This document shows, piece after piece, positions 11,651-58,680 of a stretch of DNA of 64,000 nt (positions are counted from its first letter, which is position 1; each line of letters starts with the position of its first letter). The notes below the pieces were generated by a model. The model searched no databases. It had not been told where the DNA came from and was given only the letters and a program-made list of their open reading frames with translations. Position numbers and translations under genes: made by a program. The stretch comes from the human T2T-CHM13v2.0 reference genome, Homo sapiens, in assembly GCA_009914755.4 (NCBI GenBank), contig CP086569.2, positions 21,120,001 through 21,184,000 on the forward strand, in the 5' to 3' direction.

Positions 11651-11667
11651 GCAGACCATACTGGTGA

Positions 11668-17062: not shown

Positions 17063-18022
17063 TTGTTCCTTCAGATGTGTCCAGAGTTTCTTCCTTCTGG
17101 CAGGTTCGTGGTCTTTCTCACTTCCTTAATGAAGCTGCAGACCATACTGGTGAGTGTTACAACACTTAAAGCTGTTATGTCCAGAGATTTTTGCTTTAGA
17201 TATGTCCAGAGTTTCTTCCTTCTGACAGTTTCATGGTCTTGCTCACTTCAAGAATGAAGCTGCAGACCTTACTGGTGAGTGTTACAGCACTTAAAGGTGT
17301 TATTTCCAGAGTTTGTTACTTCAGATATGTCCAGAGTTTCTTCCTTCTGGCAGGTTCATGGTCTTGCTCACTTCAAGAACGAAGCTGCAGACCTTTGCGG
17401 TGAGTGATACAACACCGAAAGGTGTTATATCCAGAGTTTGTTCCTTCAGATGTGTCCAGAGTTTCTTCCTTCTGTCAGGTTCACGGTCTTGCTCACTTCA
17501 AGAGTGAAGCTGCAGACCTTACTGGTTAGTGTTACAGCACTTAAAGGTGTTATTTCCAGAGTTTGTTCCTTCAGATGTGTCCAGAGTTTCTTCCTTCTGG
17601 CAGGTTCATGTTCTTGCTCCCTTCACGAATGAAGCTGCAGACCTTACTGTTGAGTGTTAAAGCACTGAACGGTGATATGTCCAGAATTTGTTCCTTCAGA
17701 TGTGTCCAGAGTTTCTTCCTTCTTGCAGATTCATGGTGTTGCTCACTTCAAGAATGAAGCTGCAGACCTTAGTGATGAGTGTTACAGCACTTTAAGGTGT
17801 TATGTCCAGAGTTTTTTCCTTCAGATGTGTCCAGCGTTTCTTCCTTCTGGCAGGTTCATCGTCTTGCTCACTTCAAGAATGAAGCTGCAGACCTTACTGT
17901 TGAGTGTTAAAGCACTTAAAGCTGTTATGTCCAGAGTTTGTTCCTTCAGATGTGTACAGAGTGTCTTGCTTCTGGCAGGTTCATGGTGTTGCTCACTTCC
18001 AGAATTAAGCTGCAGACCTTAG
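17063..18022. repeat. ~1-kb block duplicated at 22446-23314 (offset ~5.38 kb)
   Basis: Matching peptides at 17063/22446, 17313/22684, 17438/22821 and 17563/22934 (…LLPSRMKLQTLLLSVKALNGDMSR…), and 17672/23045 (…LQIHGVAHFKNEAADL…). Confidence 0.65.
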
Positions 18023-39000: not shown

Positions 39001-40419
39001 CTTACTGGTGAGTGTTACAGCACTTAATGGTGTTATGTCCAGAGTTTGTTCCTTCAGATGTGTCCATTGTGTCCTCCTTCTGGCAGGTTCATGGTCTTGC
39101 TCACTTCACTATTGAAGCTGCAGACCTTACTGGTGAGTGTTACAGCACTTAAAGGTGTTATGTCCAGAGATTGTTCCTTCAGATGCGTCCAGAGTTTCTA
39201 CCTTCTGGCAGGTTCATGGACTTGGTCACTTGAAGAATGAAGGTGCAGAACTTAGTGGTGACTGTTACAGCACTTAAAGGTGTTATGTCCAGACTTTGTT
39301 CCTTCAGATATGTCCAGAGTTTCTTCCTTCTGGCAGGTTCATTGTCTTGCTCATTTCAAGAAAGAAGCTGCAGACCTCAGTGGTGAGTGTTACAACACTT
39401 AAATGTAGTATGTCCAGACTTTGTTCCTTCAGATATGTCCAGATTTTCTTCCTTCTGGCAGGTTCATGGTCTTGTTCACTTCACTAATGAAGCTGCAGAC
39501 CTTACTGGTGAGTGTTACAACACTTAAAGGTGTTATGTCCAGAGTTTATTCCTTCAGATGGGTCCAGGGTTTCTGTCTTCTGGCAGGTCCATGGTCTTGC
39601 TCACTTCAAGAATGAAGCTGCAGACCTTAGTGGTGAGTGTTACAGCACTTAAAGGTGTTATGTCCAGAGTTTCTACCTTCAGATGTGTCCAGAGTTTCTT
39701 CCTTCTTGCAGGTTCGTGGTCTTGCTCACTTCCTTTATGAAGCTGCAGACCTTCCTGGTGAGTGTTACAGCCTTTAAAGGTGTTATGTCCAGAGTTTGTT
39801 CCTTCAGATGTGTCCATTGTGTCCTCCTTCTGGCAGGTTCATGGTCTTGCTCACTTCACTAATGAAGCTGCAGACCTTACTGGTGAGTGTTACAGCACTT
39901 AAAGGTATTATGTCCAGAGTTTTTTCCTTCAGATGTGTCCAGGGTTTCTGTCTTCTGGCTGGTTCATGTCTTGGTCACTTCAAGAATGAAGCTGCCGACC
40001 TTAGTGGTGACTGTTACAGCACTTAAACGTGTTATGTCCAGAGTTTTTTCCTTCAGATGTGTCCAGCGTTTCTTCCTTCTGGCAGGTTCATGGTCTTGCT
40101 CACTTCAAGAATGAAGCTGCAGACCTTACTGTTGAGTGTTAAAGCACTTAAAGGTGTTATATCCAGAGTTTGTTCCTTCAGATGTGTCCAGAGTTTCTTC
40201 CTTCTGGCAGGTTCATGGTGTTGCTCACTTCAACAATGAAGCTGCAGACCTTAGTGTTGAGTGTTACAGCACTTAAAGGTGTTATGTCCAGAGTTTGTTC
40301 CTTCAGATGTGACCAGAGTTTCTTCCTTCTTGCAGGTTCGTGGTCTTGCTCACTTCCTTAATGAAGCTGCAGGCCTTCCTGGTTTGTGTTACAGCACTTA
40401 AAGTTGTTATGTCCAGAGT

Positions 40420-42500
40420 TTGTTCCTTCAGATGTGTCCATTGTGTCCTCCTTCTGGCAGGTTCATGGTCTTGCTCACTTCACTAATGAAGCTGCAGACC
40501 TTACTGGTGAGTGTTACAGCACTTAAAGGTGTTATGTCCGGAGTTTGTTCCTTCAGATGTGTCCAGTGTGTCTTCCTTCTGGCAGGTTCATGGTCTTGCT
40601 CACTTCAAGAATGGAGCTGCAGACTTTTGTGGTGAGTGTTACAGCAGTTAAAGTTGTTATGTCCAGAATTTGTTCCTTCAGATCTGTCCAGTGTTTCTTC
40701 CTTCTGGCAGGTTCATGGTCTTGCTCAGTTCAAGAATGAAGCTGCAGACCTTACAGGTGAGTGCTACAGAACTTAAAGGTGTTGTGTCCAGAGGTTGTTC
40801 CTTCAGATGCGTCCAGAGTTTCTACCTTCTGGCAGGTTCATGGTGTTGGTCACTTCAAGAATGAAGGTGCAGACCTTAGTGGTGAGTGTTACAGCACTTA
40901 AAGGTGTTATGTCCAGACTTTGTTCCTTCAGATATGTCCAGAGTTTCTTCCTTCTGGCAGGTTCATTGTCTTGCTCATTTCAAGAATGAAGCTGCAGACT
41001 TTAGTGGTGAGTGTTACACCACTTAAAGGTGTTATGTCCAGACTTTGTTCCTTCAGATATGTCCAGAGTTTCTTCCTTCTGGCAAGTTCATGGTCTTGCT
41101 CACTTCACTAATAAAGCTGAAGACCTTACTGGTGAGTATTACAGCACTTTAAGGTGTTATGTCCAGAGTTTTTTCCTTCGGATGTGTCCAGCGTTTCTTC
41201 CTTCTGGCAAGTTCATGGTCTTGCTCACTTCAAGAATGAAGCTGCAGACCTTACTGTTTAGTGTTAAAGCACTTAAAGGTGTTATATCCAGAGTTTGTTC
41301 CGTCAGATGTGTCCAGAGTTTCTTCCTTCTGGCAGGTTCATGGTGTTGCTCACTTCAAGAATGAAGCTGCAGACCTTAGTGTTGAGTGTTAAAGCACTTA
41401 AAGGTGTTATGTCCAGAGTTTGTTCCTTCAGATGTGTCCAGAGTTTCTTCCTTCTTGCAGGTTCGTGGTCTTGCTCACTTCCTTAATGAAGCTGCAGACC
41501 TTCCTGGAGAGTGTTACAGCACTTAAAGGTGTTATGTCCAGAGTTTGTTCCTTCAGATGTGTCCATTGTGTCCTCCTTCTGGTAGGTTCATGGTCTTGCT
41601 CACTTCACTAATGAAGCTGCAGACCTTACTGGTGAGTGTTAAAGCACTTAAAGGTGTTATGTCCAGAGTTTGTTCCTTCAGATGTGTCCACTGTCTCTTC
41701 CTTCTGGCAGGTTCATGGTCTTGCTCACTTCAAGAATGGAGCTGCAGACATTTGTGGTGAGTGTTACATCAGTTAAAGTTGTTATGTCCAGAATTTGTTC
41801 CTTCAGATGTGTCCAGTGTTTCTTCCTTCTGCCAGGTTCATGGGCTTGCTCACTTCAGGAATGAAGCTGCAGACCTTACAGGTGAGTGTTACAGAACTTA
41901 AAGGTGTTGTGTACAGAGATGGTTCCTTCAGATGCGTCCAGAGTTTCTACCTTCTGGCAGTTTCATGGTCTTGGTCACTTCAAGAATGAAGGTGCAGGCC
42001 TTAGTGGTGAGTGTTACAGCACTTAAAGGTGTTATGTCCAGACTTTGTTCCTTCAGATATGTCCAGAGTTGCTTCCTTCTGGCAGGTTCATTGTCTTGCT
42101 CATATCAAGAATGAAGCTGCAGACTTTAGTGGTGAGTGTTACAGCACTTAAAGTTGTTATGTCCAGACTTTGTACCTTCAGATATGTCCAGAGTTTCTTC
42201 CTTCTGGCAGGTTCATGGTCTTGCTCACTTCACTAATAAAGCTGAAGACCTTACTGGTGAGTGTTACAGCACTTTAAGGTGTTATGTCCAGAGTTTGTTT
42301 CCTCAGATGTGTCCAGGGTTTCTGTCTTCTGGCAGGTTCCTGGTCTTGCTCACTTCAAGAATGAAGCTGCAGACCTTAGTGGTGAGTGTTACAGCACTTA
42401 AAGGTGTTATGTCCAGAGATTTTTCCTTCAGATGTGTCCAGCGTTTCTTCCTTCTGTCAGGTTCATGGTCTTGCTCACTTCAAGAATGAAGCTGCAGACC
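40420..42500. repeat. Tandem ~9-monomer (1125-bp) higher-order unit x ~2, copies moderately diverged; related modules at 36138-36730 and 30801-31120
   Basis: Peptide series C(PLCPPSGRF)/V/…SFYLLAGSWCWSLQE/MRPEF…KVQ/ICPEF…ISRMKLQ/…TNKAEDLTG recurs with a 1125-bp offset (40420/41545, 40545/41670, 40670/41795, 40795/41932, 40920/42045, 41011/42136) and with a 4249-bp offset from 36138/36296/36421/36546. Confidence 0.7.
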
Positions 42501-44169
42501 TTAGTGTTGAGTGTTAAGGCACTTAAAGGTGTTATGTCCAGAGTTTGTTCCTTCAGATGTCTCCAGGTTTTCTTCCTTCTGGCAGGTTCATGGTGTTGCT
42601 CACCTCAAGAATGCAGCTTCAGACCTCAGTGTTGAGTGTTACAGCACTCAAAGGTGTTATGTCCAGAGTTTTTTCCTTCAGATATGTCCAGCGTTTCTTC
42701 CTTCTGGCAGGTTCATGGTCTTGCACACTTCAAGAATGAAGCTGCAGACCTTACTGTTGAGTTTTAAAGCACTTAAATGTGTTATGTCCAGAGTTTGTTC
42801 CTACAGATGTGTCCAGAGTTTCTTCCTTCTGGCAGGTTCATGGTGTTGCTCACTTCAAGAATGAAGCTGCAGACCTTACTGTTGAGTGTTACAGCACTTA
42901 AAGGTGTTATGTCCAGAGTTTTTTCCTTCAGATGTGTCCAGCGTTTCTTCCTTCTGGGAGGTTCATCGTCTTGCTCACTTCACTAATGAAGCTGCAGACC
43001 TTACTGGTGAGTGTTACAGCACTTAAAGCTGTTATGTCCAGAGTTTGTTCCTTCAGATTTGTCCAGTGTCTCTTCCTTCTGGCAGGTTCATGGTCTTGCT
43101 CACTTCAAGAATGGAGCTGCAGACTTTTGTGGTGAGTGTTACAGCAGTTAAAGTTGTTATGTCCAGAATTTGTTCCTTCAGATGTGTCCAGTGTTTCTTC
43201 CTTCTGGCAGGTTTATGGTCTTGCTCACTTCAAGAATGAAGCTGCAGACCTTAGTGGTGAGTGTTACAGCACTTAAAGGTGTTATGTCCAGAGTTTTTTC
43301 CTTCAGATATGTCCAGCGTTTCTTACTTCTGGCAGGTTCATGGTCTTGCTCACTTCAAGAGTAAAGCTGCAGACCTTACTGTTGAGTTTTAAAGCTCTTA
43401 AAGGTGTTATGTCCAGAGTTTGTTCCTTCAGATGTGTCCAGAGTTTCTTCCTTCTGGCAGGTTCATGGTGTTGCTCACTTCAAGAATGAAGCTGCAGACC
43501 TTAGTGTTGAGTGTTACAGCACTTAAAGGTGTTATGTCCAGAGTTTTTTCCTTCAGATGTGTCCAGCGTTTCTTCCTTCTGGCAGGTTCATCGTCTTGCT
43601 CACTTTAAGAATGAAGCTGCAGACCTTACTCTTGAGTGTTAAGGCACTTAAAGGTGTTATGTCCAGAGTTTGTTCCTTCAGATGTGTCCAGAATTTCTTC
43701 CTTCTGGCAGGTTCATGGTGTTGCTCACTTCAAGAATGAAGCTGCAGACCTTAGTGTTGAGTGTTACGGCACTTAAAGGTGTTATGTCCAGAGTTTTTTC
43801 CTTCAGATATGTCCAGCGTTTCTTCCTTCTGCCAGGTTCATGGTCTTGCACACTTCAAGAATGAAGCTGCAGACCTTACTGTTGAGTTTTAAAGCACTTA
43901 ATGGTGTTATGTCTAGAGTTTGTTCCTTCAGATGTGTCCAGAGTTTGTTCCTTCTGGCAGGTTCATGGTGTTGCTCACTTCAAGAATGAAGCTGCAGACC
44001 TTAGTGTTGAGTGTTACAGCACTTAAACGTGTTATGTGCAGAGTTTGTTCCTTCATATGTGTCCAGAGTTTCTTCCTTCTTGCATGTTCGTGGTCTTGCT
44101 CACTTCCTTAATGAAGCTGCAGACCTTCCTGGTGAGTGTTACAACACTTAAATGTGTTATGTCCAGAGT

Positions 44170-45300
44170 TTGTTCCTTCAGATGTGTCCTGAGTGTCTTC
44201 CTTCTGGCAGGTTCATGGTCTTGCTCACTTCACTAATGAAGCTGCAGACCTTACTGGTGAGTGTTACAGCCCTTAAAGGTGTTATGTCCAGAGTTTGTTC
44301 CTTCAGATGTGTCCAGGGTTTCTGTCTTCTGGCAGGTACATGGTCTTGCTCACTTCAAGAATGAAGCTGCCGAACTTAGTGGTGAATGTTACAGCACTTA
44401 AAGGTGTTATGTCCAGAGTTTGTTCCTTCAGATGTGTCCAACGTTTCTTCTTTCTGGCAGGTTCATGGTCTTGCTCACTTCAAGAATGAAGCTGCAGACC
44501 TTACTGTTTAGTGCTAAAGCTCTTAAAGGTGTTATGTCCAGAGTTTGTTCCTTCAGATGTGTCCAGAGTTTCTTCCTTCTGGCAGGTTCATGGTGTTGCT
44601 CACATCAAGAATGAAGCTGCAGACCTTAGTGTTGAGTGTTACAGCACTTAAAGGTTTTATGTCCAGAGTTTGTTCCTTGAGATGTATCCAGAGTTTCTTC
44701 CTTCTTGCAGGTTCGTGATCTTGCTCACTTCCTTAATGAAGCTGCAGACCTTACTGGTGAGTGTTACAGCACTTAAAGGTGTTATGTCCAGAGTTTGTTC
44801 CTTCAGATGTGTCCAGTGTTTCTTCCTTCTGGCAGGTTCATGGTCTTGCTCACTTCAAGAATGAAGCTGCAGAGTTTTGTGGTGAGTGTTACAGCAGTTA
44901 AAGTTGTTATGTCCAGAATTTGTTCCTTCAGATGTGTCCAGTGTTTCTTCCTTCTGGCAGGTTCATGGTCTTGCTCACTTCAAGAATGAAGCTGCAAACC
45001 ATACTGGTGAGTGATACAGCACTTAAAGGTGTTATGCCCAGAGTTTGTTCCTTCAGATGTGTCCAGAGTGTCTTCCTTCAGGCAGGTTCATGGTCTTGCT
45101 CATTTCAAGAATTAAGTTGCAGACCTTAGTGGTGAGGGTTACAGCACATAAAGGTGTTATGTTCAGAGTTTGTTCCTTCAGATGTGTCCAGAGTTTCTTC
45201 CTTCTGGCCGTTTCGTGGTCTTCCTCACTTCAGCAATGAAGCTGCAGACCTTACTTGTGAGTGTTACAGCACTTAAAGGTGTTATGTCCAGAGTTTGTTC
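44170..45300. repeat. ~1.1-kb block (9 monomers) with a copy 25 monomers downstream (47295-48425) and a partial copy at 53668-54240
   Basis: ORF peptides match pairwise at an exact 3125-bp (25 x 125) offset: 44295/47420, 44420/47545, 44670/47795, 44795/47920, 44920/48045, 45045/48170. They match again at 44670/53668, 44795/53793, 44920/53918, 45045/54043 and 45170/54168. Confidence 0.75.
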
Positions 45301-45414
45301 CTTCAGATGTGTCCAGAGTGTCTTCCTTCTAGCAGGTTCATGGTCTTGCTCACTTCACTAATGAAGCTGCAGACTTTACTGGGGAGTGTTACAGCACTGA
45401 AAGGTGTTTTGTCC

Positions 45415-46950
45415 AGAGTTTGTTCCTTCAGATGTGTCCAGAGTTTCTTCCTTCTAGCAGGTTTATTGTCTTGCTCATTTCAAGAATTACGCTGCAGACC
45501 TTAGTGGTGAGTGTTTCAGCACTTAAAGGTGTTATGTCCAGAGTTTGTTCCTTCAGATGTGTCCTGAGTTTCTTCCTTCTGGCAGGTTCATGGTGTTGCT
45601 CACTTCAACAATGAAGCTGCAGACCTTAGTATTGAGTGTTACAGCACTTAAAAGTGTTATGTCCAGAGTTTCTTCCTTGAGATGTGTCCAGAGTTTCTTC
45701 CTTCTTGCAGGTTCGTGGTCTTGCTCAGTTCCTTAATGAAGCTGCAGACCTTACTGGTGAGTGTTACAGCACTTAAAGGTGTTATGTCCAGAGTTTGTTC
45801 CTTCAGATGTGTCCAGTGTTTCTTCCTTCTGACAGGTTCATGGTGTTGCTCACTTCAAGAATGAAGCTGCCGACCTTACTGGTGAGTGTCACAGCACTTA
45901 AAGGTATTATGTGCAGAGTTTGTTCCTTCAGAATTGTCCAGTGTTTCTTCCTTCTGGCAGGTTCATGGTCTTGCTCACTTCAAGAATGAAGCTGCAGACC
46001 TTACTGGTGAGTGTTACAGCACTTAAAGCTGTTATGTCCAGAGTTTGATCCTTCAGATGTTTCCAGAGTTTCTTCCTTCTGGCAGGTTCATGGTGTTGCT
46101 CACTTCAACAATGAAGCTGCAGACCTTAGTGTTGAGTGTTACAGCACTTAAAGGTGTTATGTTCAGAGTTTGTTCCTTCAGATGTGTCCAGAGTTTCTTC
46201 CTTCTAGCAGGTTTATTGTCTTGCTCATTTCAAGAATTACGCTGCAGACCTTAGTGGTGAGTGTTTCAGCACTTAAAGGTGTTATGTCCAGAGTTTGTTC
46301 CTTCAGATGTGTCCTGAGTTTCTTCCTTCTGGCAGGTTCATGGTGTTGCTCACTTCAACAATGAAGCTGCAGACCTTAGTATTGAGTGTTACAGCACTTA
46401 AAAGTGTTATGTCCAGAGTTTCTTCCTTGAGATGTGTCCAGAGTTTCTTCCTTCTTGCAGGTTCGTGGTCTTGCTCAGTTCCTTAATGAAGCTGCAGACC
46501 TTACTGGTGAGTGTTACAGCACTTAAAGGTGTTATGTCCAGAGTTTGTTCCTTCAGATGTGTCCAGTGTTTCTTCCTTCTGACAGGTTCATGGTGTTGCT
46601 CACTTCAAGAATGAAGCTGCCGACCTTACTGGTGAGTGTCACAGCACTTAAAGGTATTATGTGCAGAGTTTGTTCCTTCAGAATTGTCCAGTGTTTCTTC
46701 CTTCTGGCAGGTTCATGGTCTTGCTCACTTCAAGAATGAAGCTGCAGACCTTACTGGTGAGTGTTACAGCACTTAAAGCTGTTATGTCCAGAGTTTGATC
46801 CTTCAGATGTTTCCAGAGTTTCTTCCTTCTGGCAGGTTCATGGTGTTGCTCACTTCAACAATGAAGCTGCAGACCTTAGTGTTGAGTGTTACAGCACTTA
46901 AAGGTGTTATGTTCAGAGTTTGTTCCTTCAGATGTGTCCAGAGTTTCTTC
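45415..46950. repeat. Tandem duplication of a 750-bp (6-monomer) unit, ~2.05 copies, 100% identical where compared
   Basis: Direct comparison of sequence lines 45421-46200 with 46171-46950 shows identity at every position checked. ORF peptides 45420/46170, 45545/46295, 45682/46432 and 45795/46545 are identical. Flanks diverge immediately outside. Confidence 0.9.
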
Positions 46951-49900
46951 CTTCTTGCAGGGTCGTAGTCTTGCTCACTTCCTTAATGAAGCTGCAGACC
47001 TTACTGGTGAGTGTTACAGCACTTAAAGGTGTTATGTCCAGAGTTTCTTCCTTCAGATGTCTCCAGTGTTTCTTCCTTCTGGCAGGTTCATGGTGTTCCT
47101 CACTTCAAGAATGAAGCTGCAGACCTTACTGGTGAGTGTTACAGCACTCATAGGTGTTATGTGCAGAGTTTGTTCCTTCAGATGTGTCCAGAGTTTCTTC
47201 CTTCTTGCAGGTTGGTGGTCTTTCTCACTACCTTAATGAAGCTGCAGACCTTACTGGTGAATGTTACAGCACATAAAGGTGTTATGTCCAGAGTTTGTTC
47301 CTTCAGATGTGTCCTGAGTGTCTTCCTTCTGGCAGGTTCATGGTCTTGCTCACTTCACTAATGAAGCTGCAGACCTTACTGGTGAGTGTTACAGCCCTTA
47401 AAGGTGTTATGTCCAGAGATTGTTCCTTCAGATGTGTCCAGGGTTTCTGTCTTCTGGCAGGTACATGGTCTTGCTCACTTCAAGAATGAAGCTGCCGAAC
47501 TTAGTGGTGAGTGTTACAGCACTTAAAGGTGTTATATCCAGAGTTTGTTCCTTCAGATGTGTCCAGCGTTTCTTCTTTCTGGCAGGTTCATGCTCTTGCT
47601 CACTTCAAGAATGAAGCTGCAGACCTTACTGTTTAGTTCTAAAGCTCTTAAAGGTGTTATGTCCAGAGTTTGTTCCTTCAGATGTGTCCAGAGTTTCTTC
47701 CTTCTGGCAGGTTCATGGTCTTGCTCACATCAAGAATGAAGCTGCAGACCTTAGTGTTGAGTGTTACAGCACTTAAAGGTTTTATGTCCAGAGTTTGTTC
47801 CTTGACATGTGTCCAGAGTTTCTTCCTTATTGCAGGTTCGTGATCTTGCTCACTTCCTTAATGAAGCTGCAGACCTTACTGGTGAGTGTTACAGCACTTA
47901 AAGGTGTTATGTCCAGAGTTTGTTCCTTCAGATGTGTCCAGTGTTTCTTCCTTCTGGCAGGTTCATGGTCTTGCTCACTTCACGAATGAAGCTGCAGAGT
48001 TTTGTGGTGAGTGTTACAGCAGTTAAAGTTGTTATGTCCAGAATTTTTTCCTTCAGATGTGTCCAGTGTTTCTTCCTTCTGGCAGGTTCATGGTCTTGCT
48101 CACTTCAAGAATGAAGCTGCAAACCTTACTGGTGAGTGATACAGCACTTAAAGGTGTTATGCCCAGAGTTTGTTCCTTCAGATGTGTCCAGAGTGTCTTC
48201 CTTCAGGCAGGTTCATGGTCTTGCTCATTTCAAGAATTAAGTTGCAGACCTTAGTGGTGAGGGTTACAGCACTTAAAGGTGTTATGTTCAGAGTTTCTTC
48301 CTTCAGATGTGTCCAGAGTTTCTTCCTTCTGGCAGGTTCATGGTGTTGCTCACTTCAAGAATGAAGCAGCAGACCTTACTGGTGAGTGTTACAGCACTTA
48401 AAGCTGTTATGTCCAGAGTTTTTTCCTTCAGATGTTTCCAGAGTTTCTTCCTTCTGGCAGGTTCGTGGTCTTGCTCACTTCTTTAATGAAGCTGCAGACC
48501 TTACTGGTGAGTGTTACAGCACTTAAAGGTGTTATGTCCAGAGTTTGTTTCTTCAGATGTGTCCAGAGTTTCTTCTTTCTGGCAGTTTCGTGGTCTTCCT
48601 CACTTCAAGAATGAAGCTGCAGACCTTAATGGTGAGTGTTACACCACTTAAAGGTGTTATGTCCAGAGTTTGTTCCTTCAGATGTGTCCAGAGTGTCTTC
48701 CTTCTGGCAGGTTCATGGTCTTGCTCACTTCACTAATGAAGCTGCAGACCTTACTGGGGAGTGTTACAGCACTTAAAGTTGTTTTGTGCAGAGTTTGCTC
48801 CTTCAGATGTGTCCAGAGTTTCTTCCTTCTAGCAGGTTCATTGTCTTGCTCATTTCAAGAATTAAGCTACAGATCTTAGTGGTGAGTGTTACAGCACATA
48901 AAGGTGTTATGTCCAGAGTTTTTTCCTTCAGATGTGTCCAGTGTTTCTTCCTTCTGGCAGGTTCTTGGTCTTGCTCACTTCAAGAATGAAGCTGCAGACC
49001 TTACTGTTGAGTGTTAAAGCACTTAAAAGTGTTATCTCCAGAGTTTGTTCCTTCAGATCTTTCCAGAGTTTCTGCCTTCTGGCAGGTTCATGGTCTTGCT
49101 CATTTCAAGAATTGAGCTGCAGACCTTAGTGGTGAGGGTTACAGCACTTAAAGGTGTTATGTGCAGAGTTTGTTCCTTCAGATGTGTCCAGAGTTTCTTC
49201 CTTCGTGCAGGTTCGTGGTCTTTCTCACTTCCTTAATGAAGCTGCAGACCTTACTGATGAGTGTTACAGCAATAAAAGGTGTTATGTCCAGAGTTTGTTC
49301 CTTCAGATGTGTCCTGAGTGTCTTCCTTCTGGCAGGTTCATGGTCTTGCTCACTTCAAGAATGAAGCTGCAGACCTTATTGTTGAGTGTTAAAGCACTTA
49401 AAGGTGTTATCTCCAGAGTTTGTTCCTTCAGATGTGTCCAGAGTTTCTTCCTTCTGGCAGGTTCTTGGTGTTGCTCACTTCAACAATGAAGCTGCAGACC
49501 TTAGTGTTGAGTGTTACAGCACTTAAAGGTGTTATGTCCAGAGTTTGTTCCTCCAGATGTGTCCAGAGTTTCTTCCTTCTTTCAGGGTCGTAGTCTTGCT
49601 CACTTCCTTAATGAAGCTGCAGACCTTACTGGTGAGTGTTACAGCACTTAAAGGTGTTATGTCCAGAGTTTCTTCCTTCAGATGTGTCCAGTGTTTCTTC
49701 CTTCTGGCAGGTTCATGGTGCGGCTCACTTCAAGAATGAAGCTGCAGACCTTACTGGTGAGTGTTACAGCACTCAAAGGCGTTATGTGCAGAGTTTGTTC
49801 CTTCAGATGTGTCCAGAGTTTCTTCCTTCTTGCGGGTTGGTGGTCTTTCTCACTACCTTAATGAAGCTGCAGACCTTACTGGTGAATGTTACAGCACTTA

Positions 49901-51234
49901 AAGGAGTTATGTCCAGAGTTTGTTCCTTCAGATGTGTCCTGAGTGTCTTCCTTCTGGCAGGTTCATGGTCTTGCTCACTTCACTAATGAAGCTGCAGACC
50001 TTACTGGTGAGTGTTACAGCACTTAAAGGTGTTATGTCCAGAGTTTGTTCCTTCAGATGTGTCCAGGGTTTCTGTCTTCTGGCAGGTACATGGTCTTGCT
50101 CACTTCAAGAATGAAGCTGCCGAACTTAGTGGTGAATGTTACAGCACTTAAAGGTGTTATGTCCAGAGTTTTTTCCTTCAGATGTGTCCAGTGTTTCTTC
50201 CTTCTGGAAGGTTCATGGTCTTGCTCACTTCAGGAATGAAGCTGCAGAACTTACTGGTGTGTGATACAGCACTTAAAGGTGTTATGTCCAGAGTTTGTTC
50301 CTTCAGATGTGTCCAGAGTTTCTTCCTTCTGGCAGGTTCATGGTGTTGCTCACTTCAAGAATGAAGCAGCAGACCTTACTGGTGAGTGTTACAGCAGTTA
50401 AAGGTGTTATGACCAGAGTTTGTTCCTTCAGATGTTTCCAGAGTTTCTTCCTTCTGGCGGGTTCGTGGTCTTGCTCACTTCTTTAATGAAGCTGCAGACC
50501 TTACTGGTGAGTGTTACAGCACTTAAAGGTGTTATGTCCAGAGTTTGTTTCTTCAGATGAGTCCAGAGTTTCTTCCTTCTGGCAGTTTCGTGATCTTCCT
50601 CACTTCAAGAATGAAGCTGCAGACCTTACTGGTGAGTGTTACAACACTTAAAGGTGTTATGTCCAGAGTTTATTCCTTCAGATGTGTCCAGAGTGTCCTC
50701 CTTCTGGCAGGTTCATGGTCTTGCTCACTTCACTAATGAAGCTGCAGACCTTACTAGTGAGTGTTACAGCACTTAAAGGTGTTATGTCCAGAGTTTTTTC
50801 CTTCAGATGTGTCCAGGGTTTCTGTCTTCTGGCAGGTTCATGGTCTTGCTCACTTCAAGAATGAAGCTGCAGACCTTAGTGGTGAGTGTTACAGCACTTA
50901 AAGGTGTTATGTCCAGAGTTTATTCTTTCAGATGTGTCCAGCGTTTCTTCCTTCTGGCAGGTTCATGGTCTTGCTCACTTCAAGAATGAAGCTGCAGTCC
51001 TTACTGTTGAGTGTTAAAGCACTTAAAGGTGTTATCTCCAGAGTTTTTTCCTTCAGATGTGTCCAGAGTTTCTTCCTTCTGGCAGGTTCTTGGTGTTGCT
51101 CACTTCAACAATGAAGCTGCAGACCTTAGTGTTGAGTGTTACAGCAGTTAAAGGTGTTATGTCCAGAGTTTGTTCCTTCAGATGTGTCCAGAGTTTCTTC
51201 CTTCTTGCAGGGTCGTAGTCTTGCTCACTTCCTT

Positions 51235-53232
51235 AATGAAGCTGCAGACCTTACTGGTGAGTGTTACAGCACTTAAAGGTGTTATGTCCAGAGTTTCTTC
51301 CTTCAGATGTGTCCAGTGTTTCTTCCTTCTGGCAGGTTCATGGTGTTCCTCACTTCAAGAATGAAGCTGCAGACCTTACTGGTGAGTGTTACAGCACTCA
51401 TAGGTGTTATGTGCAGAGTTTGTTCCTTCAGATGTGTCCAGAGTTTCTTCCTTCTTGCAGGTTGGTGGTCTTTCTCACTACCTTAATGAAGCTGCAGACC
51501 TTAATGGTGAATGTTACAGCACATAAAGGTGTTATGTCCAGAGTTTGTTCCTTCAGATGTGTCCTGAGTGTCTTCCTTCTGGCAGGTTCATGGTCTTGCT
51601 CACTTCACTAATGAAGCTGCAGACCTTACTGGTGAGTGTTACAGCCCTTAAAGGTGTTATGTCCAGAGATTGTTCCTTCAGATGTGTCCAGGGTTTCTGT
51701 CTTCTGGCAGGTACATGGTCTTTCTCACTTCAAGAATGAAGCTGCCGAACTTAGTGGTGAGTATTACAGCACTTAAAGGTGTTAGGTCCAGAGTTTTTTC
51801 TTCAGATGTGTCCAGCGTTTCTTCCTTCTGGCAGGTTCTTGGTCTTGCTCACTTCAAGTATGAAGCTGCAGACCTTACTGTTGAGTGTTAAAGCACTTAA
51901 AGGTGTTATGTCCAGAGTTTGTTCCTTCAGATGTGTCCAGACTTTCTTCCTTCTGGCAGGTTCATGCTGTTGCTCACTTCAAGAATGAAGCTGCAGACCT
52001 TAGTGTTGAGTGTTACAGCACTTAAAGGTGTTTTGTCCAGAGTTTGTTCCTTCAGATGTGTCCAGAGTTTCTTCCTTCTAGCAGGTTCATTGTCTGGCTC
52101 TTTTCAGGAATGAAGCTGCAGACCTTAGTGGTGAGTGTTACAACACTTAAAGGTGTTATGTCCAGAGTTTTTTCCTTCAGATGTGTCCAGAGTGTCTTCC
52201 TTCTGGCAGGTTCATGGTCTTGCTCACTTCACTAATGAAGCTGCAGACCTTACTGGTGAGTGTTACAGCACTTAAAGGTGTTATGTCCAGAGTTTCTTCC
52301 TTCAGATGTGTCCAGTGTTTCTTCCTTCTGGCAGGTTCATGGTGTTCCTCACTTCAAGAATGAAGCTGCAGACCTTACTGGTGAGTGTTACAGCACTCAT
52401 AGGTGTTATGTGCAGAGTTTGTTCCTTCAGATGTGTCCAGAGTTTCTTCCTTCTTGCAGGTTGGTGGTCTTTCTCACTACCTTAATGAAGCTGCAGACCT
52501 TACTGGTGAATGTTACAGCACATAAAGGTGTTATGTCCAGAGTTTGTTCCTTCAGATGTGTCCTGAGTGTCTTCCTTCTGGCAGGTTCATGGTCTTGCTC
52601 ACTTCACTAATGAAGCTGCAGACCTTACTGGTGAGTGTTACAGCCCTTAAAGGTGTTATGTCCAGAGATTGTTCCTTCAGATGTGTCCAGGGTTTCTGTC
52701 TTCTGGCAGGTACATGGTCTTTCTCACTTCAAGAATGAAGCTGCCGAACTTAGTGGTGAGTATTACAGCACTTAAAGGTGTTAGGTCCAGAGTTTTTTCT
52801 TCAGATGTGTCCAGCGTTTCTTCCTTCTGGCAGGTTCTTGGTCTTGCTCACTTCAAGTATGAAGCTGCAGACCTTACTGTTGAGTGTTAAAGCACTTAAA
52901 GGTGTTATGTCCAGAGTTTGTTCCTTCAGATGTGTCCAGACTTTCTTCCTTCTGGCAGGTTCATGCTGCTGCTCACTTCAAGAATGAAGCTGCAGACCTT
53001 AGTGTTGAGTGTTACAGCACTTAAAGGTGTTTTGTCCAGAGTTTGTTCCTTCAGATGTGTCCAGAGTTTCTTCCTTCTAGCAGGTTCATTGTCTGGCTCT
53101 TTTCAGGAATGAAGCTGCAGACCTTAGTGGTGAGTGTTACAACACTTAAAGGTGTTATGTCCAGAGTTTTTTCCTTCAGATGTGTCCAGAGTGTCTTCCT
53201 TCTGGCAGGTTCATGGTCTTGCTCACTTCCCT
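51235..53232. repeat. Tandem duplication of a 999-bp (8-monomer) unit, 2 copies with only single-base differences noted; the first ~0.5 kb of the unit also occurs at 46920-47500 and 49545-50125
   Basis: Sequence at 51241-51320 equals 52240-52319. Single mismatches were seen at 51970/52969 and 52231/53230. ORF peptides 51261/52260 (116 aa), 51545/52544, 51670/52669, 51779/52778 and 51919/52918 are identical, and 52044/53043 differ only in the last residue. Confidence 0.88.
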
Positions 53233-55542
53233 AATGAAGCTGCAGACCTTACTGGTGAGTGTTACAGCACTTAAAGGTGTTATATCCAGAGTTTGTTCCT
53301 TCAGATGTGTCCAGAGTTTCTGTCTTCTGGCAGGTTCATGGTCTTGCTCACTTCAAGAATGAAGCTGCAGACCTTAGTGGTGAGTGTTACAGCACTTAAG
53401 GGTGTTATGTCCAGAGTTTTTTCCTTCAGATGTGTCCAGCGTTTCTTCCTTCTGGCAGGTTCATGGTGTTGCTCACTTCAAGAATGATGCTGCAGACTTT
53501 ACTGTTGAGTGTTAAGGCACTTAAACGTGTTATTTCCAGAGTTTGTTCCTTCAGACATGTCCAGAGTTTCTTCCTTCTGGCAGGTTCATGCTGTTGCTCA
53601 CGTCCAGAATGAAGCTGCAGACCTTAGTGTTGAGTGTTACAGCACTTAAAGGTTTTATATCCAGAGTTTGTTCCTTGAGATGTATCCAGAGTTTCTTCCT
53701 TCTTGCAGGTTCGTGATCTTGTTCACTTCCTTAATGAAGCTGCAGACCTTACTGGTGAGTGTTACAGCACTTAAAGGTGTTATGTCCAGAGTTTGTTCCT
53801 TCAGATGTGTCCAGTGTTTCTTCCTTCTGGCAGGTTCATGGTCTTGCTCACTTCAAGAATGAAGCTGCAGAGTTTTGTGGTGAGTGTTACAGCAGTTAAA
53901 GTTGTTATGTCCAGAATTTGTTCCTTCAGATGTGTCCAGTGTTTCTTCCTTCTGGCAGGTTCATGGTCTTGCTCACTTCAAGAATGAAGCTGCAAACCTT
54001 ACTGGTGAGTGATACAGCACTTAAAGGTGTTATGCCCAGAGTTTGTTCCTTCAGATGTGTCCAGAGTGTCTTCCTTCAGGCAGGTTCATGGTCTTGCTCA
54101 TTTCAAGAATTAAGTTGCAGACCTTAGTGGTGAGGGTTACAGCACTTAAAGGTGTTATGTTCAGAGTTTGTTCCTTCAGATGTGTCCAGAGTTTCTTCCT
54201 TCTGGCCGTTTCGTGGTCTTCCTCACTTCAGCAATGAAGCTGCAGACCTTAGTTGTGAGTGTTACAGCACTTAAAGGTGTTATGTCCAGAGTTTGTTCCT
54301 TCAGATGTGTCCAGAGTTTCTTCCTTCTGGCAGGTTCATGTTGTTGCTCACTTCAAGAATGAAGCTGCAGACCTTAGTGTTGAGTGTTACAGCACTTAAT
54401 GGTGTTTTGTCCAGAGTTTGTTCCTTCAGATGTGTCCAGAATTTCTTCTTTCTAGTAGGTTCATTGTCTTGCTCATTTCAAGAATGAAGCTGCAGACCTT
54501 AGTGGTGGGTGTTACAACACTTAAAGGTGTTATGTCCAGAGTTTTTTCCTTCAGATGTGTCCAGAGTGTCTTCCTTCTGGCAGGTTCATGGTCTTGTTCA
54601 CTTGAAGAATGAAGCTGCAAACCTCACTCTTTAGTGCTAAAGCACTTAAAGGTGTTATGTCCAGAGTTTGTTCCTTCAGATGTGTCCAGAGTTTCTTCCT
54701 TCTGGCAGGTTCATGGTGTTGCTCACATCAAGAATGAAGCTGCAGACCTTAGTGTTGAGTGTTACAGCACTTAAAGGTGTTATGTCCAGAGTTTGTTCCT
54801 TGAGATGTGTCCAGAGTTTCTCCATTCTTGCAGGTTCGTGGTCTTGCTCACTTCCTTAATGAAGCTGCAGACCTTACTGGTGAGTGTTACGGCACTTAAA
54901 GGTGTTATGTCCTGAGTTTGTTCCTTCAGATGTGTCCAGAGTGTCTTCCTTCTGGCAGGTTCATGGTCTTGCTCACTTCACTAATGAAGCTGCAGACCTT
55001 ACTGGGGAGTGTTACAGCACTTCAAGGTGTTTTGTCCAGAGTTTGTTCCTTGAGATGTGTCCAGAGTTTTTTCTTTCTAGCAGGTTCATTGTCTTGCTCA
55101 TTTCAAGAATTAAGCTGCAGACCTTACTGGTGAGTTTTACAGCACTTAAAACTGTTATGTCCAGAGTTTGTTCCTTCAGATGTTTCCAGAGTTTCTTCCT
55201 TCTGGCAGGTTCGTGGTCTTGCTCACTTCCTTAATAAAGCTGCAGACCTTCATGGTGAGTGTTACAGCACTTAAAGGTGTTATGTCCAGCGTTTGTTCCT
55301 TCAGATGTGTCCAGCGTTTCTACCTTCTGGCAGGTTCATGGTCTTGCTCACTTCAAGAATGAAGCTGCAGACCTTACTGTTTAGTGTTAAAGCACTTAAA
55401 GGTGTTATGTCCAGAGTTTGTTCCTTCAGATGTGTCCAGAGTTTCTTCCTTCTGGCAGGTTCATGGTGTTGCTCACTTCAAGAATGAAGCTGCAGACCTT
55501 AGTGTTGAGTGTTACAGCACTTAAAGGTGTTATGTCCAGTGT

Positions 55543-58500
55543 TTGTTCCTTCAGATGTGTCCAGAGTTTCTTCCTTCTTGCAGGTTCGTGGTCTTGCTAA
55601 CTTCCTTAATGAAGCTGCAGACCTTACTGGTGAGTGTTACAGCACTTAAAGGTGTTATTTCCAGAGTTTCTTCCTTCAGATGTGTCCAGTGTTTCTTCCT
55701 TCTGGCAGGTTCATGGTCTTGCTCATTTCAAGAATGAAGCTGCAGACTTTTGTGGTGAGTGTTACACCAGATAAAATTGTTATATCCACAATTTGTTCCT
55801 TCAGATGTGTCCAGTGTTTCTTCCTTCTGGCAGGTTCATGGTCTTGCTCACTTCAAGAATGAAGCTGCAGACCTTACTGGTGAGTGTTACAGTACTTAAA
55901 GCTGTTATGTCCAGAGTTTGATCCTTCAGATGTTTCCAGAGATTCTTCCTTCTGGCTAGTTCGTGGTCTTGCTCACTTCTTTAATGAAGCTGCAGACCTT
56001 ACTGGTGAGTGTTACAGCATTTAAAGGTATTATGTCCAGAGTTTGTTTCTTCAGATGTGTCCAGAGTTTCTTCCTTCTGGCAGTTTCGTGGTCTTTCTCA
56101 CTTCAAGATTGAAGCTGCAGACCTTAGTGTTGAGTGTTACAGCCCTTAAAGCTGTTATCTCCAGAGTTTGTTCCTTCAGATGTGTCCAGAGTTTCTTCCT
56201 TTTGGCAGGTTCATGGTCTTGCTCACTTCACTAATGAAGCTGCAGACATTACTGGGGAGTGTTACAGCACTTAAAGGTGTTTTGTCCAGAGTTTCTTCCT
56301 TCAGATGTGTCCAGAGTTTCTTCCTTCTAGCAGGTTCATTGTCTTGCTCATTTCAAGAATTAAGCTGCAGACCTTAGTGGTGACTGTTACAGCACTTATA
56401 GGTGTTAGGTCCAGAGTTTGTTCCTTCAGGTGTATCCAGAGTTTCTTCCTTCTGGCAGATTCATGGTGTTGCTCACTTCAAGAATGAAGCTGCAGACCTT
56501 ACTGGTGAGTGTTACAGCACTTAAAGCTGTTATGTCCAGAGTTTGTTCCTTCAGATGTTTCCAGAGTTTCTTCCTTCTGGCAGGTTCATGGTCTTGCTCA
56601 CTTCTTTAATGAAGCTGCAGACCTTACTGGTGAGTATTACAGCACTTAAAGGTGTTATGTCCAGAGTTTGTTCCATCAGATGTGTCCAGAGTGTCTTCCT
56701 TCTGGCAGGTACATGGTCTTGCTCACTTCAAGAATGAAGCTGCAGACCTTACTGGTGAGTGTCACAGCACTTAAAGGTGTTATGTCCAGAGTTTTTTCCT
56801 TCAGATGTGTCCAGGGTTTCTGTCTTCTGGCAGGTTCATGGTCTTCCTCACTTCAAGAATGAAGCTGCCGACCTTTGTGGTGAGTGTTACAGCACTTGAA
56901 GGTGTTATGTCCAGAGTTCTTTCCTTCAGATGTGTCCAGCATTTCTTCCTTCTGGCAGGTTCATGGTCTTCCTCACTTCAAGAATGAAGCTGCAGACCTT
57001 ACTGGTGAGTGTTACAGCAATTAAAGTTGTTATGTCCAGAGCTTTTTCCTTCAGATGCGTCCAGAGTTTCTTCCTTCTGGCAGGTTCATGGTCTTGGTCA
57101 CTTCAAGAATGAAGGTGCAGACCTTAGTGGTGAGTGTTACAGCACTTAAAGGTGTTATGTCCAGACTTTGTTCCTTCAGATATGTCCAGAGTTTCTACCT
57201 TCTGGCAGGTTCATGGTCTTGCTCACATCAAGAATGAAGCTGCATACCTTACTGTTTAGTGTTAAAGCACTTAAAGGTGTTATGTCCAGAGTTTGTTCCG
57301 TCAGATGTGTCCAGAGTTTCTTCCTTCTGGCAGGTTCATGGTGTTGCTCACTTCAAGAATGAAGCTGCAGACCTTAGTGTTGAGTGCTACAGCACTTAAA
57401 GGTGTTATGTCCAGTGTTTGTTCCTTCAGATGTGTCCAGAGTTTCTTCCTTCTTGCAGGTTCGTGGTCTTGCTCACTTCCTTAATGAAGCTGCATATCTT
57501 ATTGGTGAGTGTTACAGCACTTAAAGGTGTTATTTCCAGAGTTTCTTCCTTCAGATGTGTCCAGTGTTTCTTCCTTCTGGCAGGTTCATGGTCTTGCTCA
57601 TTTCAAGAATGAAGCTGCAGACTTTTGTGCTGAGTGTTACACCAGTTAAAGTGGTTATGTCCACAATTTGTTCCTTCAGATATGTCCAGTGTTTCTTCCT
57701 TCTGGCAGGTTCATGGTCTTGCTCACTTCAAGAATGAAGCTGCAGACCTTACTGGGGAGTGTTACAGCACTTAAAGGTGTTTTGTCCAGAGTTTGTTCCT
57801 TGAGATGTGTCCAGAATTTCTTCCTTCTAGCAGGTTCATTGTCTTGCTCATTTCAAGAATTAAGCTGCAGACCTTAGTGGTGAGTGTTACAGCACTTAAA
57901 GGTGTTATGTCCAGAGTTTGTTCCTTTAGATGTGTCCAGAGTTTCTTCCTTCTGGCAGATTCATGGTGTTGCTCACTTCAAGAATGAAGCAGCAGACCTT
58001 ACTGGTGAGTGTTACAGCACTTAAAACTGTTATGTCCAGAGTTTGTTCCTTCAGATGTTTCCAGAGTTTCTTCCTTCTGGCAGGTTCGTGGTCTTGCTCA
58101 CTTCTTTAATGAAGCTGCAGACCTTACTGATGAGTGTTACAGCACTTAAAGGTGTTATGTCCAGAGTTTGTTCCTTCAGATGTGTCCAGTGTTTCTTCCT
58201 TCTGGCAGGTTCATGGTGTTGCTCACTTCAAGAATGAAGGTGCAGACTTTACTGGTGAGTGCTACAGCACTTAAAGGTGTTATGTGCAGAGTTTTTTCCT
58301 TCAGATATGTCCAGAGTTTCTTCCTTCTTGCAGGTTCGTGGTCTTGCTCACTTCCTTAATGAAGCTGCAGACCTTCAAGGTGAGTGTTACAGCACTTAAA
58401 GGTGTTATGTCCAGAGTTTGTTCCTTCAGATGTGTCCAGCGTTTCTTCCTTCTGGCAGGTTCAAGGTCTTGCTCACTTCAAGAATGACGCTGCAGACCTT

Positions 58501-58680
58501 AGTGTTGAGTGTTACAGAACTTAAAGGTGTTATGTCCAGTGTTTGTTCCTTCAGATGTGTCCAGAGTTTCTTCCTTCTTGCAGGTTCGTGGTCTTGCTCA
58601 CTTCCTTAATGAAGCTGCAGAACTTACTGGTGAGTGATACAGCACTTAAAGGTGTTATGTCCAGAGTTTCTTCCTTCAGA
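55543..58680. repeat. Variable-length higher-order units delimited by a recurring B-type then V-type monomer pair: one 15-monomer unit (55543-57417) followed by a 9-monomer unit (57418-58542) that is a deleted version of it. A further copy of part of the unit lies at 59418-60042, offset 2875 from 56543-57167
   Basis: The B/V pair (…PSCRFVVLLTSLMKLQ… then …PVFLPSGRFMVLLISRMKLQTFV…SVTP/AVKVVMS) starts at 55543, 57418 and 58543. Peptides 56168~57668~58918, 56305~57793~59043, 56543~58043~59418, 56668~59543, 56805~59650, 56930~59805, 57055~59918. Confidence 0.65.

What the first reader, a model, noticed from the sequence alone, without database searches (positions are those of the whole stretch)
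46920..53232. Near-perfect 2 x 999-bp tandem duplication, with older copies of its leading half upstream
Units 51235-52233 and 52234-53232 differ at only a few positions, including one at 51970/52969 and one at 52231/53230. The first ~0.5 kb of the unit also appears at 46920 and 49545, at offsets of 21 and 13 monomers. This records successive rounds of duplication of the same segment, giving a local time series of array expansion.
Basis: seen in the sequence. Interest (0 to 1): 0.55.

Follow-up and report, generated by a model that had tools for sequence, protein, structure and literature searches.

The report
Recent eight-monomer duplication in 125-bp satellite
The near-perfect 2 x 999-bp repeat is real, but it is an ordinary recent tandem duplication of eight monomers inside a 125-bp satellite array that matches published descriptions of human Y-chromosome DYZ19, where local duplications are already reported.

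Summary
The whole 64-kb window is one head-to-tail 125-bp satellite array. Monomers are about 89% identical at every spacing, so there is no array-wide higher-order repeat. The period, the monomeric organisation and the LTR-derived monomer match published descriptions of human DYZ19 (Yq11).

The reported duplication is confirmed. Positions 51234-52284 and 52233-53283 differ at 3 of 1051 bases. The unit is 999 bp: seven 125-bp monomers plus one 124-bp monomer. Identity falls to background (about 90%) immediately outside.

The junction monomer (52173-52297) is a hybrid of the two flanking parental monomers. The switch lies in a 52-bp tract identical in both. This is the signature of an in-register, homology-guided unequal exchange.

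The "time series" reading is only partly right:
- The copy at about 46.9 kb is 99.6-99.8% identical to the pair, so it is not resolvably older.
- Only the copy at about 49.6 kb (97.8%) is older.
- The dispersed copies are short mosaic patches. Gene conversion explains them at least as well as expansion.
- A perfect six-monomer (750-bp) tandem duplication at 45414-46955 shows the event is not unique.

Verdict: a real and well-characterised feature of a known, ordinary kind. Interest is low.

The parts
1..64000 (+). Uninterrupted head-to-tail array of a 125-bp satellite monomer (about 512 copies). There is no strand switch and no array-wide higher-order period.
   Evidence: TRF gives period 125, 512.6 copies and 88% matches. 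Segmentation gives 458 monomers of 125 bp, 33 of 124, 17 of 123, 2 of 122 and 1 of 126. Mean monomer identity is 0.887-0.893 at every offset.
51234..52232 (+). Copy 1 of the 999-bp (8-monomer) tandem duplication.
   Evidence: 3 mismatches in 1051 against the copy 999 bp downstream. Its private derived base is at 51504.
52233..53231 (+). Copy 2 of the 999-bp tandem duplication.
   Evidence: Same comparison. Its private derived base is at 52969, where C replaces the T found in 453 of 458 monomers.
52173..52297 (+). Hybrid junction monomer. The left part is like the monomer at 53172 and the right part is like the monomer at 51174. The exchange tract is 52233-52284, 52 bp identical in both parents.
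   Evidence: Monomer-by-monomer variant display and mismatch positions at offset 999.
53232..53283 (+). 52-bp start of a third period. This is the parental monomer's own copy of the homology tract in which the exchange occurred.
   Evidence: The first mismatch to the right at offset 999 is 52285/53284. The next 125 bp show 11 mismatches in 125, which is background.
51674..51797 (+). 124-bp monomer with a 1-bp deletion. Its duplicate lies at 52673-52796. This deletion explains why the unit is 999 bp and not 1000.
   Evidence: Monomer length table. The two sequences are identical.
46914..47472 (+). Dispersed copy A of the left flank plus the first 489 bp of the unit. It is as young as the tandem pair.
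   Evidence: 2 mismatches in 559 against 51164-51722 and 1 in 489 against 52233-52721. Its flanks show 4/115 and 5/75 mismatches and then background.
49321..50135 (+). Dispersed copy B, the older paralogue of the same block.
   Evidence: 18 mismatches in 815 against 50946-51760, and 10-11 in 489 against the units and copy A, which is 97.8%.
45414..46955 (+). A second, perfect tandem duplication of 6 monomers (750 bp, 2.06 copies), directly abutting copy A.
   Evidence: 0 mismatches in 792 at offset 750. Flanks show 14/125 and 17/125 mismatches. The exchange tract is 42 bp.
44154..45319 (+). Another paralogous block, with copies at 47279-48333 (98.6%) and 53606-54317 (99.3%). It is part of the 44-54.5 kb patchwork.

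Best explanation
The window lies inside a long monomeric 125-bp satellite array of the DYZ19 type, whose monomer derives from a tandem module of an LTR. At 51234-53283 a block of eight consecutive monomers was recently duplicated in tandem by a homology-guided, in-register misaligned exchange between two monomers eight units apart. The exchange could have been unequal sister-chromatid exchange or a replication template switch; the sequence cannot separate them. It took place inside a 52-bp tract that was identical in the two parental monomers and left a hybrid junction monomer. After the event each copy acquired about one to two point substitutions.

The surrounding 10 kb (44-54.5 kb) is a local patchwork of similarly young events. 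It contains one further perfect 6-monomer tandem duplication and several dispersed 0.2-1 kb high-identity patches, which are best read as gene-conversion-like transfers between older paralogous blocks. The DNA is non-coding. The duplication has no function of its own; it is a snapshot of normal satellite turnover.

Shown directly: the repeat, its boundaries, the hybrid junction, the polarity of the substitutions, and the relative divergences. Inferred: the molecular mechanism, the assignment to DYZ19/human Y, and conversion as the origin of the dispersed patches.
For: - Array structure.
- Duplication: 3 mismatches in 1051, with flanks dropping at once to 12/125 and 11/125.
- Geometry: copy length (1051) equals the offset (999) plus a 52-bp homology tract, exactly as unequal exchange predicts. 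The same geometry holds for the independent 6-monomer event (792 = 750 + 42).
- Junction: monomer 52173-52297 carries the left-hand diagnostic bases of the monomer at 53172 (G at offset 21, C at offset 59). It carries the right-hand diagnostic bases of the monomer at 51174 (C at offset 123, no A at offset 112), with no inserted or deleted base.
- Shared 1-bp deletion: both copies carry the same 124-bp monomer.
- Polarity: the differences fall on both copies, 51504 derived in copy 1 and 52969 derived in copy 2. This fits independent decay after a real event.
- Non-coding: no ORF longer than 116 aa and no Rfam family.
- LTR origin: two metagenome contigs carry 2-3 copies of the same module, 91-97% identical to the window consensus. 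In one of them (L002) the module lies at the 5' edge of an LTR-like element with GCTGATTGG repeats.
Against: - No human or primate genome could be searched here. The assignment to DYZ19 and the Y chromosome rests on period, organisation, the LTR relationship and the literature, not on a sequence match to a reference.
- Sequence alone cannot separate sister-chromatid exchange from replication slippage or template switching.
- A gene-conversion tract whose length happened to equal the misalignment offset would give the same picture.
- No reads are available to exclude an assembly error.
Confidence: 0.85

Rival explanations
1. There was no expansion. A gene-conversion tract of about 1 kb copied block 51234-52284 over the pre-existing, homologous but diverged next eight monomers and homogenised them without changing array length.
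For: Every monomer is homologous to every other at about 89%, so misaligned conversion is possible. The dispersed patches nearby are much shorter than their spacing and look like conversion.
Against: The tract length would have to equal the misalignment offset to within 52 bp, so that donor and recipient abut exactly. The same coincidence would be needed again for the 6-monomer event (792 against 750). Unequal exchange predicts this geometry without any coincidence.
Confidence: 0.07
2. Assembly artefact: a false tandem duplication of a 1-kb satellite segment introduced by the assembler.
For: Satellite arrays are prone to mis-assembly. No reads are available here. The T2T-Y paper documents that the GRCh38 DYZ19 array is incomplete and rearranged relative to T2T-Y.
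Against: The copies differ by three clean substitutions split between both copies. One of them (52969) is a base found in only 3 of 458 monomers. The junction is a clean in-phase hybrid monomer. A 2-kb structure is easily spanned by single long reads. Comparable events of graded age occur throughout the window.
Confidence: 0.05
3. Birth of a higher-order repeat: the 8-monomer (and 6-monomer) units are the first cycles of a new HOR that is being amplified and will homogenise this part of the array.
For: The region 44-54.5 kb holds 9 of the 12 best high-identity segments of the window, and its 4-kb block at 44-48 kb has the highest nearest-neighbour identity, 0.992. Published work reports rounds of expansion and homogenisation in DYZ19.
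Against: There are only 2.05 and 2.06 copies. The offsets of the other paralogues (13, 21, 25, 34, 47, 72 monomers) share no common unit. No periodicity above 125 bp appears in the identity-by-offset profile.
Confidence: 0.1

Closest known systems
DYZ19 satellite array of the human Y chromosome long arm (Skaletsky 2003; T2T-Y, Rhie et al.; Hallast et al.)
   Same: Both have a 125-bp unit in head-to-tail orientation and a monomer that is a fragment of an LTR. Both are monomeric arrays of more than 60 kb containing local, highly identical tandem duplications and layers of expansion.
   Different: Nothing tested differs. The chromosomal location and species of the window could not be checked, and the published papers do not describe this particular 8-monomer event at base level.
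Unequal crossing-over model of tandem-repeat evolution (G. P. Smith 1976; own knowledge)
   Same: The duplication is in register and spans an integral number of monomers. The junction monomer is a hybrid, the exchange lies in a tract of perfect identity, and the flanks are at background divergence.
   Different: On a male-specific Y region the exchange would have to be between sister chromatids or within a chromatid rather than between homologues. The reciprocal deletion product cannot be observed.
Higher-order repeats of alpha satellite (for example the DYZ3 34-mer)
   Same: A multi-monomer unit is repeated with much higher identity between units (99.7%) than between monomers within a unit (about 89%).
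   Different: There are only two copies, with no array-wide period and no shared unit among neighbouring paralogues. This is not an HOR array.

Membership tests
DYZ19 (human Yq11 125-bp satellite) | Tandem head-to-tail array with a 125-bp primary unit. | tested here: met
   TRF gives period 125 and 512.6 copies over the whole window. 458 of 511 monomers are exactly 125 bp.
DYZ19 (human Yq11 125-bp satellite) | The monomer is derived from a portion of an LTR (LTR12B according to T2T-Y). | tested here: inconclusive
   Contig L002 carries three copies of the same module (91-92% to the window consensus) at the 5' edge of an LTR-like element. This is followed by GCTGATTGG-containing 25-bp repeats. 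The element resembles LTR12 as I recall it, but no repeat library was available to name it.
DYZ19 (human Yq11 125-bp satellite) | Located on the human Y long arm, flanked by X-degenerate sequence. | not testable with these tools
   The window contains no flanking sequence, and no human genome collection is available. The scan of bacterial and archaeal genomes gave 0 hits.
DYZ19 (human Yq11 125-bp satellite) | Array size of tens to hundreds of kb (63.5-428 kb reported). | tested here: met
   The array fills all 64 kb of the window and runs off both ends. This is a lower bound consistent.
Tandem duplication by in-register unequal homologous exchange | The two copies are adjacent, and copy length equals the offset plus a short homology tract. 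| tested here: met
   Periodic span 51234-53283 equals 2 x 999 + 52.
Tandem duplication by in-register unequal homologous exchange | Hybrid junction repeat with no inserted or deleted bases. | tested here: met
   Monomer 52173-52297 combines the left part of the monomer at 53172 with the right part of the monomer at 51174, in phase.
Tandem duplication by in-register unequal homologous exchange | A reciprocal deletion product, or haplotypes lacking the duplication. | not testable with these tools
   This needs other haplotypes of the same array.
Higher-order repeat (HOR) satellite | A multi-monomer unit tandemly iterated many times, giving a peak of identity at the HOR period. | tested here: not met
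   Identity by monomer offset is flat at 0.889-0.893 for offsets 1-300. The 8-mer and 6-mer units have only 2.05 and 2.06 copies.

The most novel reading that the evidence does not exclude
The 10-kb stretch 44-54.5 kb is an active homogenisation focus of the array. Repeated in-register exchanges and conversions are generating a nascent higher-order structure in an otherwise monomeric LTR-derived satellite, so comparison across haplotypes would catch HOR birth in progress on a non-recombining chromosome.
Probability: 0.1. Interest if true: 0.35.

Novelty: already known. Interest (0 to 1): 0.1.

Why it matters
The finding matters little by itself. It is a clean, base-resolved example of how a monomeric satellite turns over: an in-register exchange within a roughly 50-bp identity tract, followed by point decay and conversion patches. 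Local tandem duplications and rounds of expansion in this satellite are already published. If the window is human DYZ19, the two junctions (52173-52297 and the 750-bp unit junction near 46164) could serve as presence/absence markers. These would help date array events on the Y phylogeny and calibrate satellite mutation rates.

Tried and rejected
- Array-wide higher-order periodicity was rejected. Identity by offset is flat, and the apparent decay is only phase drift from 1-2 bp indels.
- Coding potential was rejected. There are only monomer-periodic ORFs of 60-116 aa.
- A structured RNA was rejected. There is no Rfam family at gathering threshold in 44000-54500.
- An ancestral 13-monomer HOR (block P-Q-R-S-D-E-F-B-G-H-I-J-K) was considered and rejected. 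Only one pair of copies sits at offset 13; the others sit at 21, 25, 34, 47 and 72.
- A full-text search of the paper library for three monomer motifs found nothing. The supplement of Hallast et al. does not print the DYZ19 consensus.
- The scan of bacterial and archaeal genomes for a 24-mer found nothing.
- Molecular-clock dating was considered and not adopted. Using my recollection of the Y-chromosome rate of about 0.8e-9 per bp per year (not a tool result), 0.29% divergence (95% CI 0.06-0.83%) would give about 1.8 Myr. The same clock would make the 11% monomer divergence older than the LTR family itself, so the unique-sequence rate evidently does not apply inside the array.
- Clustering of breakpoints by monomer phase was not pursued. 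There are too few events, and resolution is limited to the informative sites.

Full report
**What the window is**

Tandem Repeats Finder reports a single array of period 125 bp covering positions 1-64000, with 512.6 copies, 88% matches and one orientation. Base composition is uniform at 43-44% G+C with constant skews.

I segmented the array with a profile HMM built from its own monomers. This gave 511 complete monomers: 458 of 125 bp, 33 of 124, 17 of 123, 2 of 122 and 1 of 126.

Mean pairwise monomer identity is 0.887. It stays at 0.889-0.893 for every monomer offset from 1 to 300. The array is therefore monomeric and has no array-wide higher-order repeat. The decay of raw autocorrelation with distance is only phase drift caused by the 1-2 bp indels.

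The DNA is non-coding. The only ORFs are monomer-periodic and 60-116 aa long. No Rfam family matches. CpG is strongly depleted, with observed/expected 0.12.

**Identity of the satellite**

A 125-bp monomeric, head-to-tail array longer than 60 kb matches published descriptions of DYZ19 on the human Y long arm.
[quoted passage not shown] No primate genome can be searched with these tools. An exact 24-mer scan found nothing in bacterial or archaeal genomes. It found two short metagenome contigs, presumably host DNA:
- L002 carries three copies of the same module, 91-92% identical to the window consensus. They start at the 5' edge of an LTR-like element that continues into GCTGATTGG-containing 25-bp repeats.
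- L001 carries two copies (93-97%) next to sequence that I recognise, from memory only, as L1-like.

This shows directly that the monomer exists as a short native tandem module of a dispersed LTR element, as the literature says. Calling that element LTR12 rests on the literature and on my memory of the consensus, not on a test made here.

**Checking the observation**

Positions 51235-52233 and 52234-53232 differ at exactly three positions: 51504/52503, 51970/52969 and 52231/53230. The near-identity at offset 999 runs from 51234 to 52284 on the left coordinate, so the periodic span is 51234-53283, with 3 mismatches in 1051. Just outside, the same offset gives 12/125 and 11/125 mismatches, which is background.

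The unit is 999 bp rather than 1000 because one of its eight monomers is 124 bp. This monomer occurs identically in both copies at 51674 and 52673. These are two of only three monomers that are not 125 bp long in the last 24 kb of the window.

Against background, the match stands out clearly:
- Other 8-monomer runs at offset 8 average 0.889 identity, with sd 0.014 and maximum 0.924.
- This locus scores 0.995 on the monomer alignment (z = 7.8).
- Of 126,755 8-monomer run pairs at all offsets, only two reach 0.99, and both belong to this locus.

**Anatomy of the junction**

I displayed the monomers as differences from the consensus. In the three statements below, "offset" means the position within the 125-bp monomer.
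- The monomer at 51174, in which copy 1 begins, has T32, G38, G41, A43 and CTT at 58-60, and then C at offset 123.
- The monomer at 53172, in which copy 2 ends, has G21 and CCT at 58-60, then A at offset 112 and no C123.
- The junction monomer at 52173 has G21 and C59 like the latter. It has C123 and no A112 like the former.

The junction monomer is therefore a hybrid: left part from the distal parent, right part from the proximal parent. The switch lies somewhere in offsets 60-111, which is 52233-52284. That 52-bp tract is identical in both parents. No base is gained or lost.

This is what an in-register misaligned homologous exchange between monomers eight units apart predicts. It also explains why the periodic span is 2 x 999 + 52.

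**Polarity of the three differences**

- At 51504, copy 1 has A. Copy 2 and both dispersed copies have C, so the change is derived in copy 1.
- At 52969, copy 2 has C, where 453 of 458 monomers and copy 1 have T, so the change is derived in copy 2.
- At 52231/53230 there has been one further change after the duplication, and its side is ambiguous.

Changes on both copies argue for a real event followed by independent decay. They argue against an assembler-made duplicate.

**The upstream copies and the "time series"**

Over the first 489 bp of the unit, the four copies are A (46984), B (49609), C (51234) and D (52233). Their pairwise differences are:

| Pair | Differences in 489 bp |
|---|---|
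| A-C | 2 |
| A-D | 1 |
| C-D | 1 |
| A-B | 11 |
| B-C | 11 |
| B-D | 10 |

A, C and D form a star with at most one private change each. Copy A is therefore not resolvably older than the tandem pair (Fisher p = 1), whereas B is older (p = 7e-4 to 9e-3).

Copy A also shares the 70 bp to the left of copy C (46914-46983 = 51164-51233). This ties it to C with its flank rather than to D.

The copies are mosaic. In the monomer preceding the block, C (51049) differs from B (49424) at one site but from A (46799) at four. In the next four monomers, C is nearly identical to A and 2% from B.

I labelled monomer families at 97% identity. Monomers 353-434, spanning about 44.2-54.4 kb, then read:

DEFBGHIJK . 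LMGNOP LMGNOP QRSDEFBGHIJ ... PQ.SDE ... PQRSD XYZaD RSDXYZaD W..GHIJK

This is a patchwork of partial copies of a block P-Q-R-S-D-E-F-B-G-H-I-J-K at offsets of 13, 21, 25, 34, 47 and 72 monomers, with no common unit. For these dispersed patches the length (0.2-1 kb) is much shorter than the spacing (1.6-9 kb). Gene-conversion-like transfer on top of older paralogy is at least as good an explanation as fresh duplication, and expansion is not demonstrated for them.

Statistically only two or three tiers can be told apart: about 0-0.7%, about 1.4% and about 2.2%, against 11% background.

**Context**

The 8-monomer event is not unique. A six-monomer (750-bp) tandem duplication at 45414-46955 is perfect, with 0 mismatches in 792. 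It has background flanks (14/125 and 17/125) and a 42-bp identity tract at its junction. Two independent events with copy length equal to offset plus a tract of about 50 bp strongly favour true tandem duplication. A conversion model would need the tract length to equal the misalignment offset twice, by coincidence.

Nine of the twelve best high-identity segments of the whole window lie in 44-54.5 kb. The 4-kb block at 44-48 kb has the highest nearest-neighbour identity, 0.992. Older multi-monomer duplications of 97.5-98.2% occur elsewhere, for example at 10.3-15.2 kb, 31.2-34.2 kb and 56.5-60.1 kb. The process is therefore general across the array, and this stretch is simply the most recently active part.

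**Mechanism and rivals**

The best explanation is a recent homology-guided, in-register unequal exchange that duplicated eight monomers. On a male-specific Y region this would be between sister chromatids or within a chromatid; a replication template switch would leave the same scar. I give the duplication itself a confidence of 0.85. The choice between exchange and slippage cannot be made from sequence.

The rivals are:
- Conversion without expansion (0.07). It is disfavoured by the geometry argument above.
- Assembly artefact (0.05). It is disfavoured by the polarised substitutions and the clean hybrid junction, but it cannot be excluded without reads.
- Incipient higher-order repeat (0.1). 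Only two copies exist and the neighbouring paralogues share no unit.

**Novelty and verdict**

The satellite, its LTR origin, its monomeric organisation, and the presence of local tandem duplications and rounds of expansion are all published. The base-level dissection here adds detail but no new kind of thing. That detail is the hybrid junction, the 52-bp exchange tract and the equal age of copy A.

Noticed in passing
window 45414-46955: A perfect six-monomer (750-bp) tandem duplication with 0 mismatches in 792 at offset 750 and background flanks. It is at least as young as the reported 999-bp pair, it directly abuts copy A, and it is not mentioned in the finding.
   Followed up: yes
window 44000-54500: Nine of the twelve best high-identity (>=97.8%) ungapped segments of the whole 64-kb window fall in this 10-kb stretch. 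The block at 44-48 kb has the highest nearest-neighbour monomer identity, 0.992. This is a local focus of recent duplication and conversion.
   Followed up: partly
window 1-40000 versus 40000-64000: Fifty of the 53 monomers that are not 125 bp long (mostly 123 or 124 bp) start before position 40000. Only three lie after it, and two of those are the duplicated 124-bp monomer. The first 16-20 kb is also about 1.5-2% more divergent from the rest than the rest is from itself. This suggests sub-domains of different age or homogenisation history.
   Followed up: partly
every monomer; for example window 1726-1777, 13938-13992, 29413-29461: The 125-bp monomer contains an internal direct repeat of about 25 bp (GTCCAGAGTTTSTTCCTTC...), with copies 25 bp apart. 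TRF finds places where two full 25-bp periods are especially similar.
   Followed up: no
L001 (OOKJ01005318.1) 154-412 and L002 (OOKJ01007490.1) 344-803: Two contigs in the metagenome collection carry 2-3 copies of the same 125-bp module. In L002 the module sits in an LTR-like element with GCTGATTGG repeats. In L001 it sits next to L1-like sequence and an (AC)n-rich tract. Both look like primate host DNA within a metagenome assembly.
   Followed up: partly
window 1-64000: CpG is strongly depleted, with observed/expected 0.12 and 0.73 CpG per monomer, and the consensus monomer contains no CpG. This fits a source sequence or array that was long methylated.
   Followed up: no
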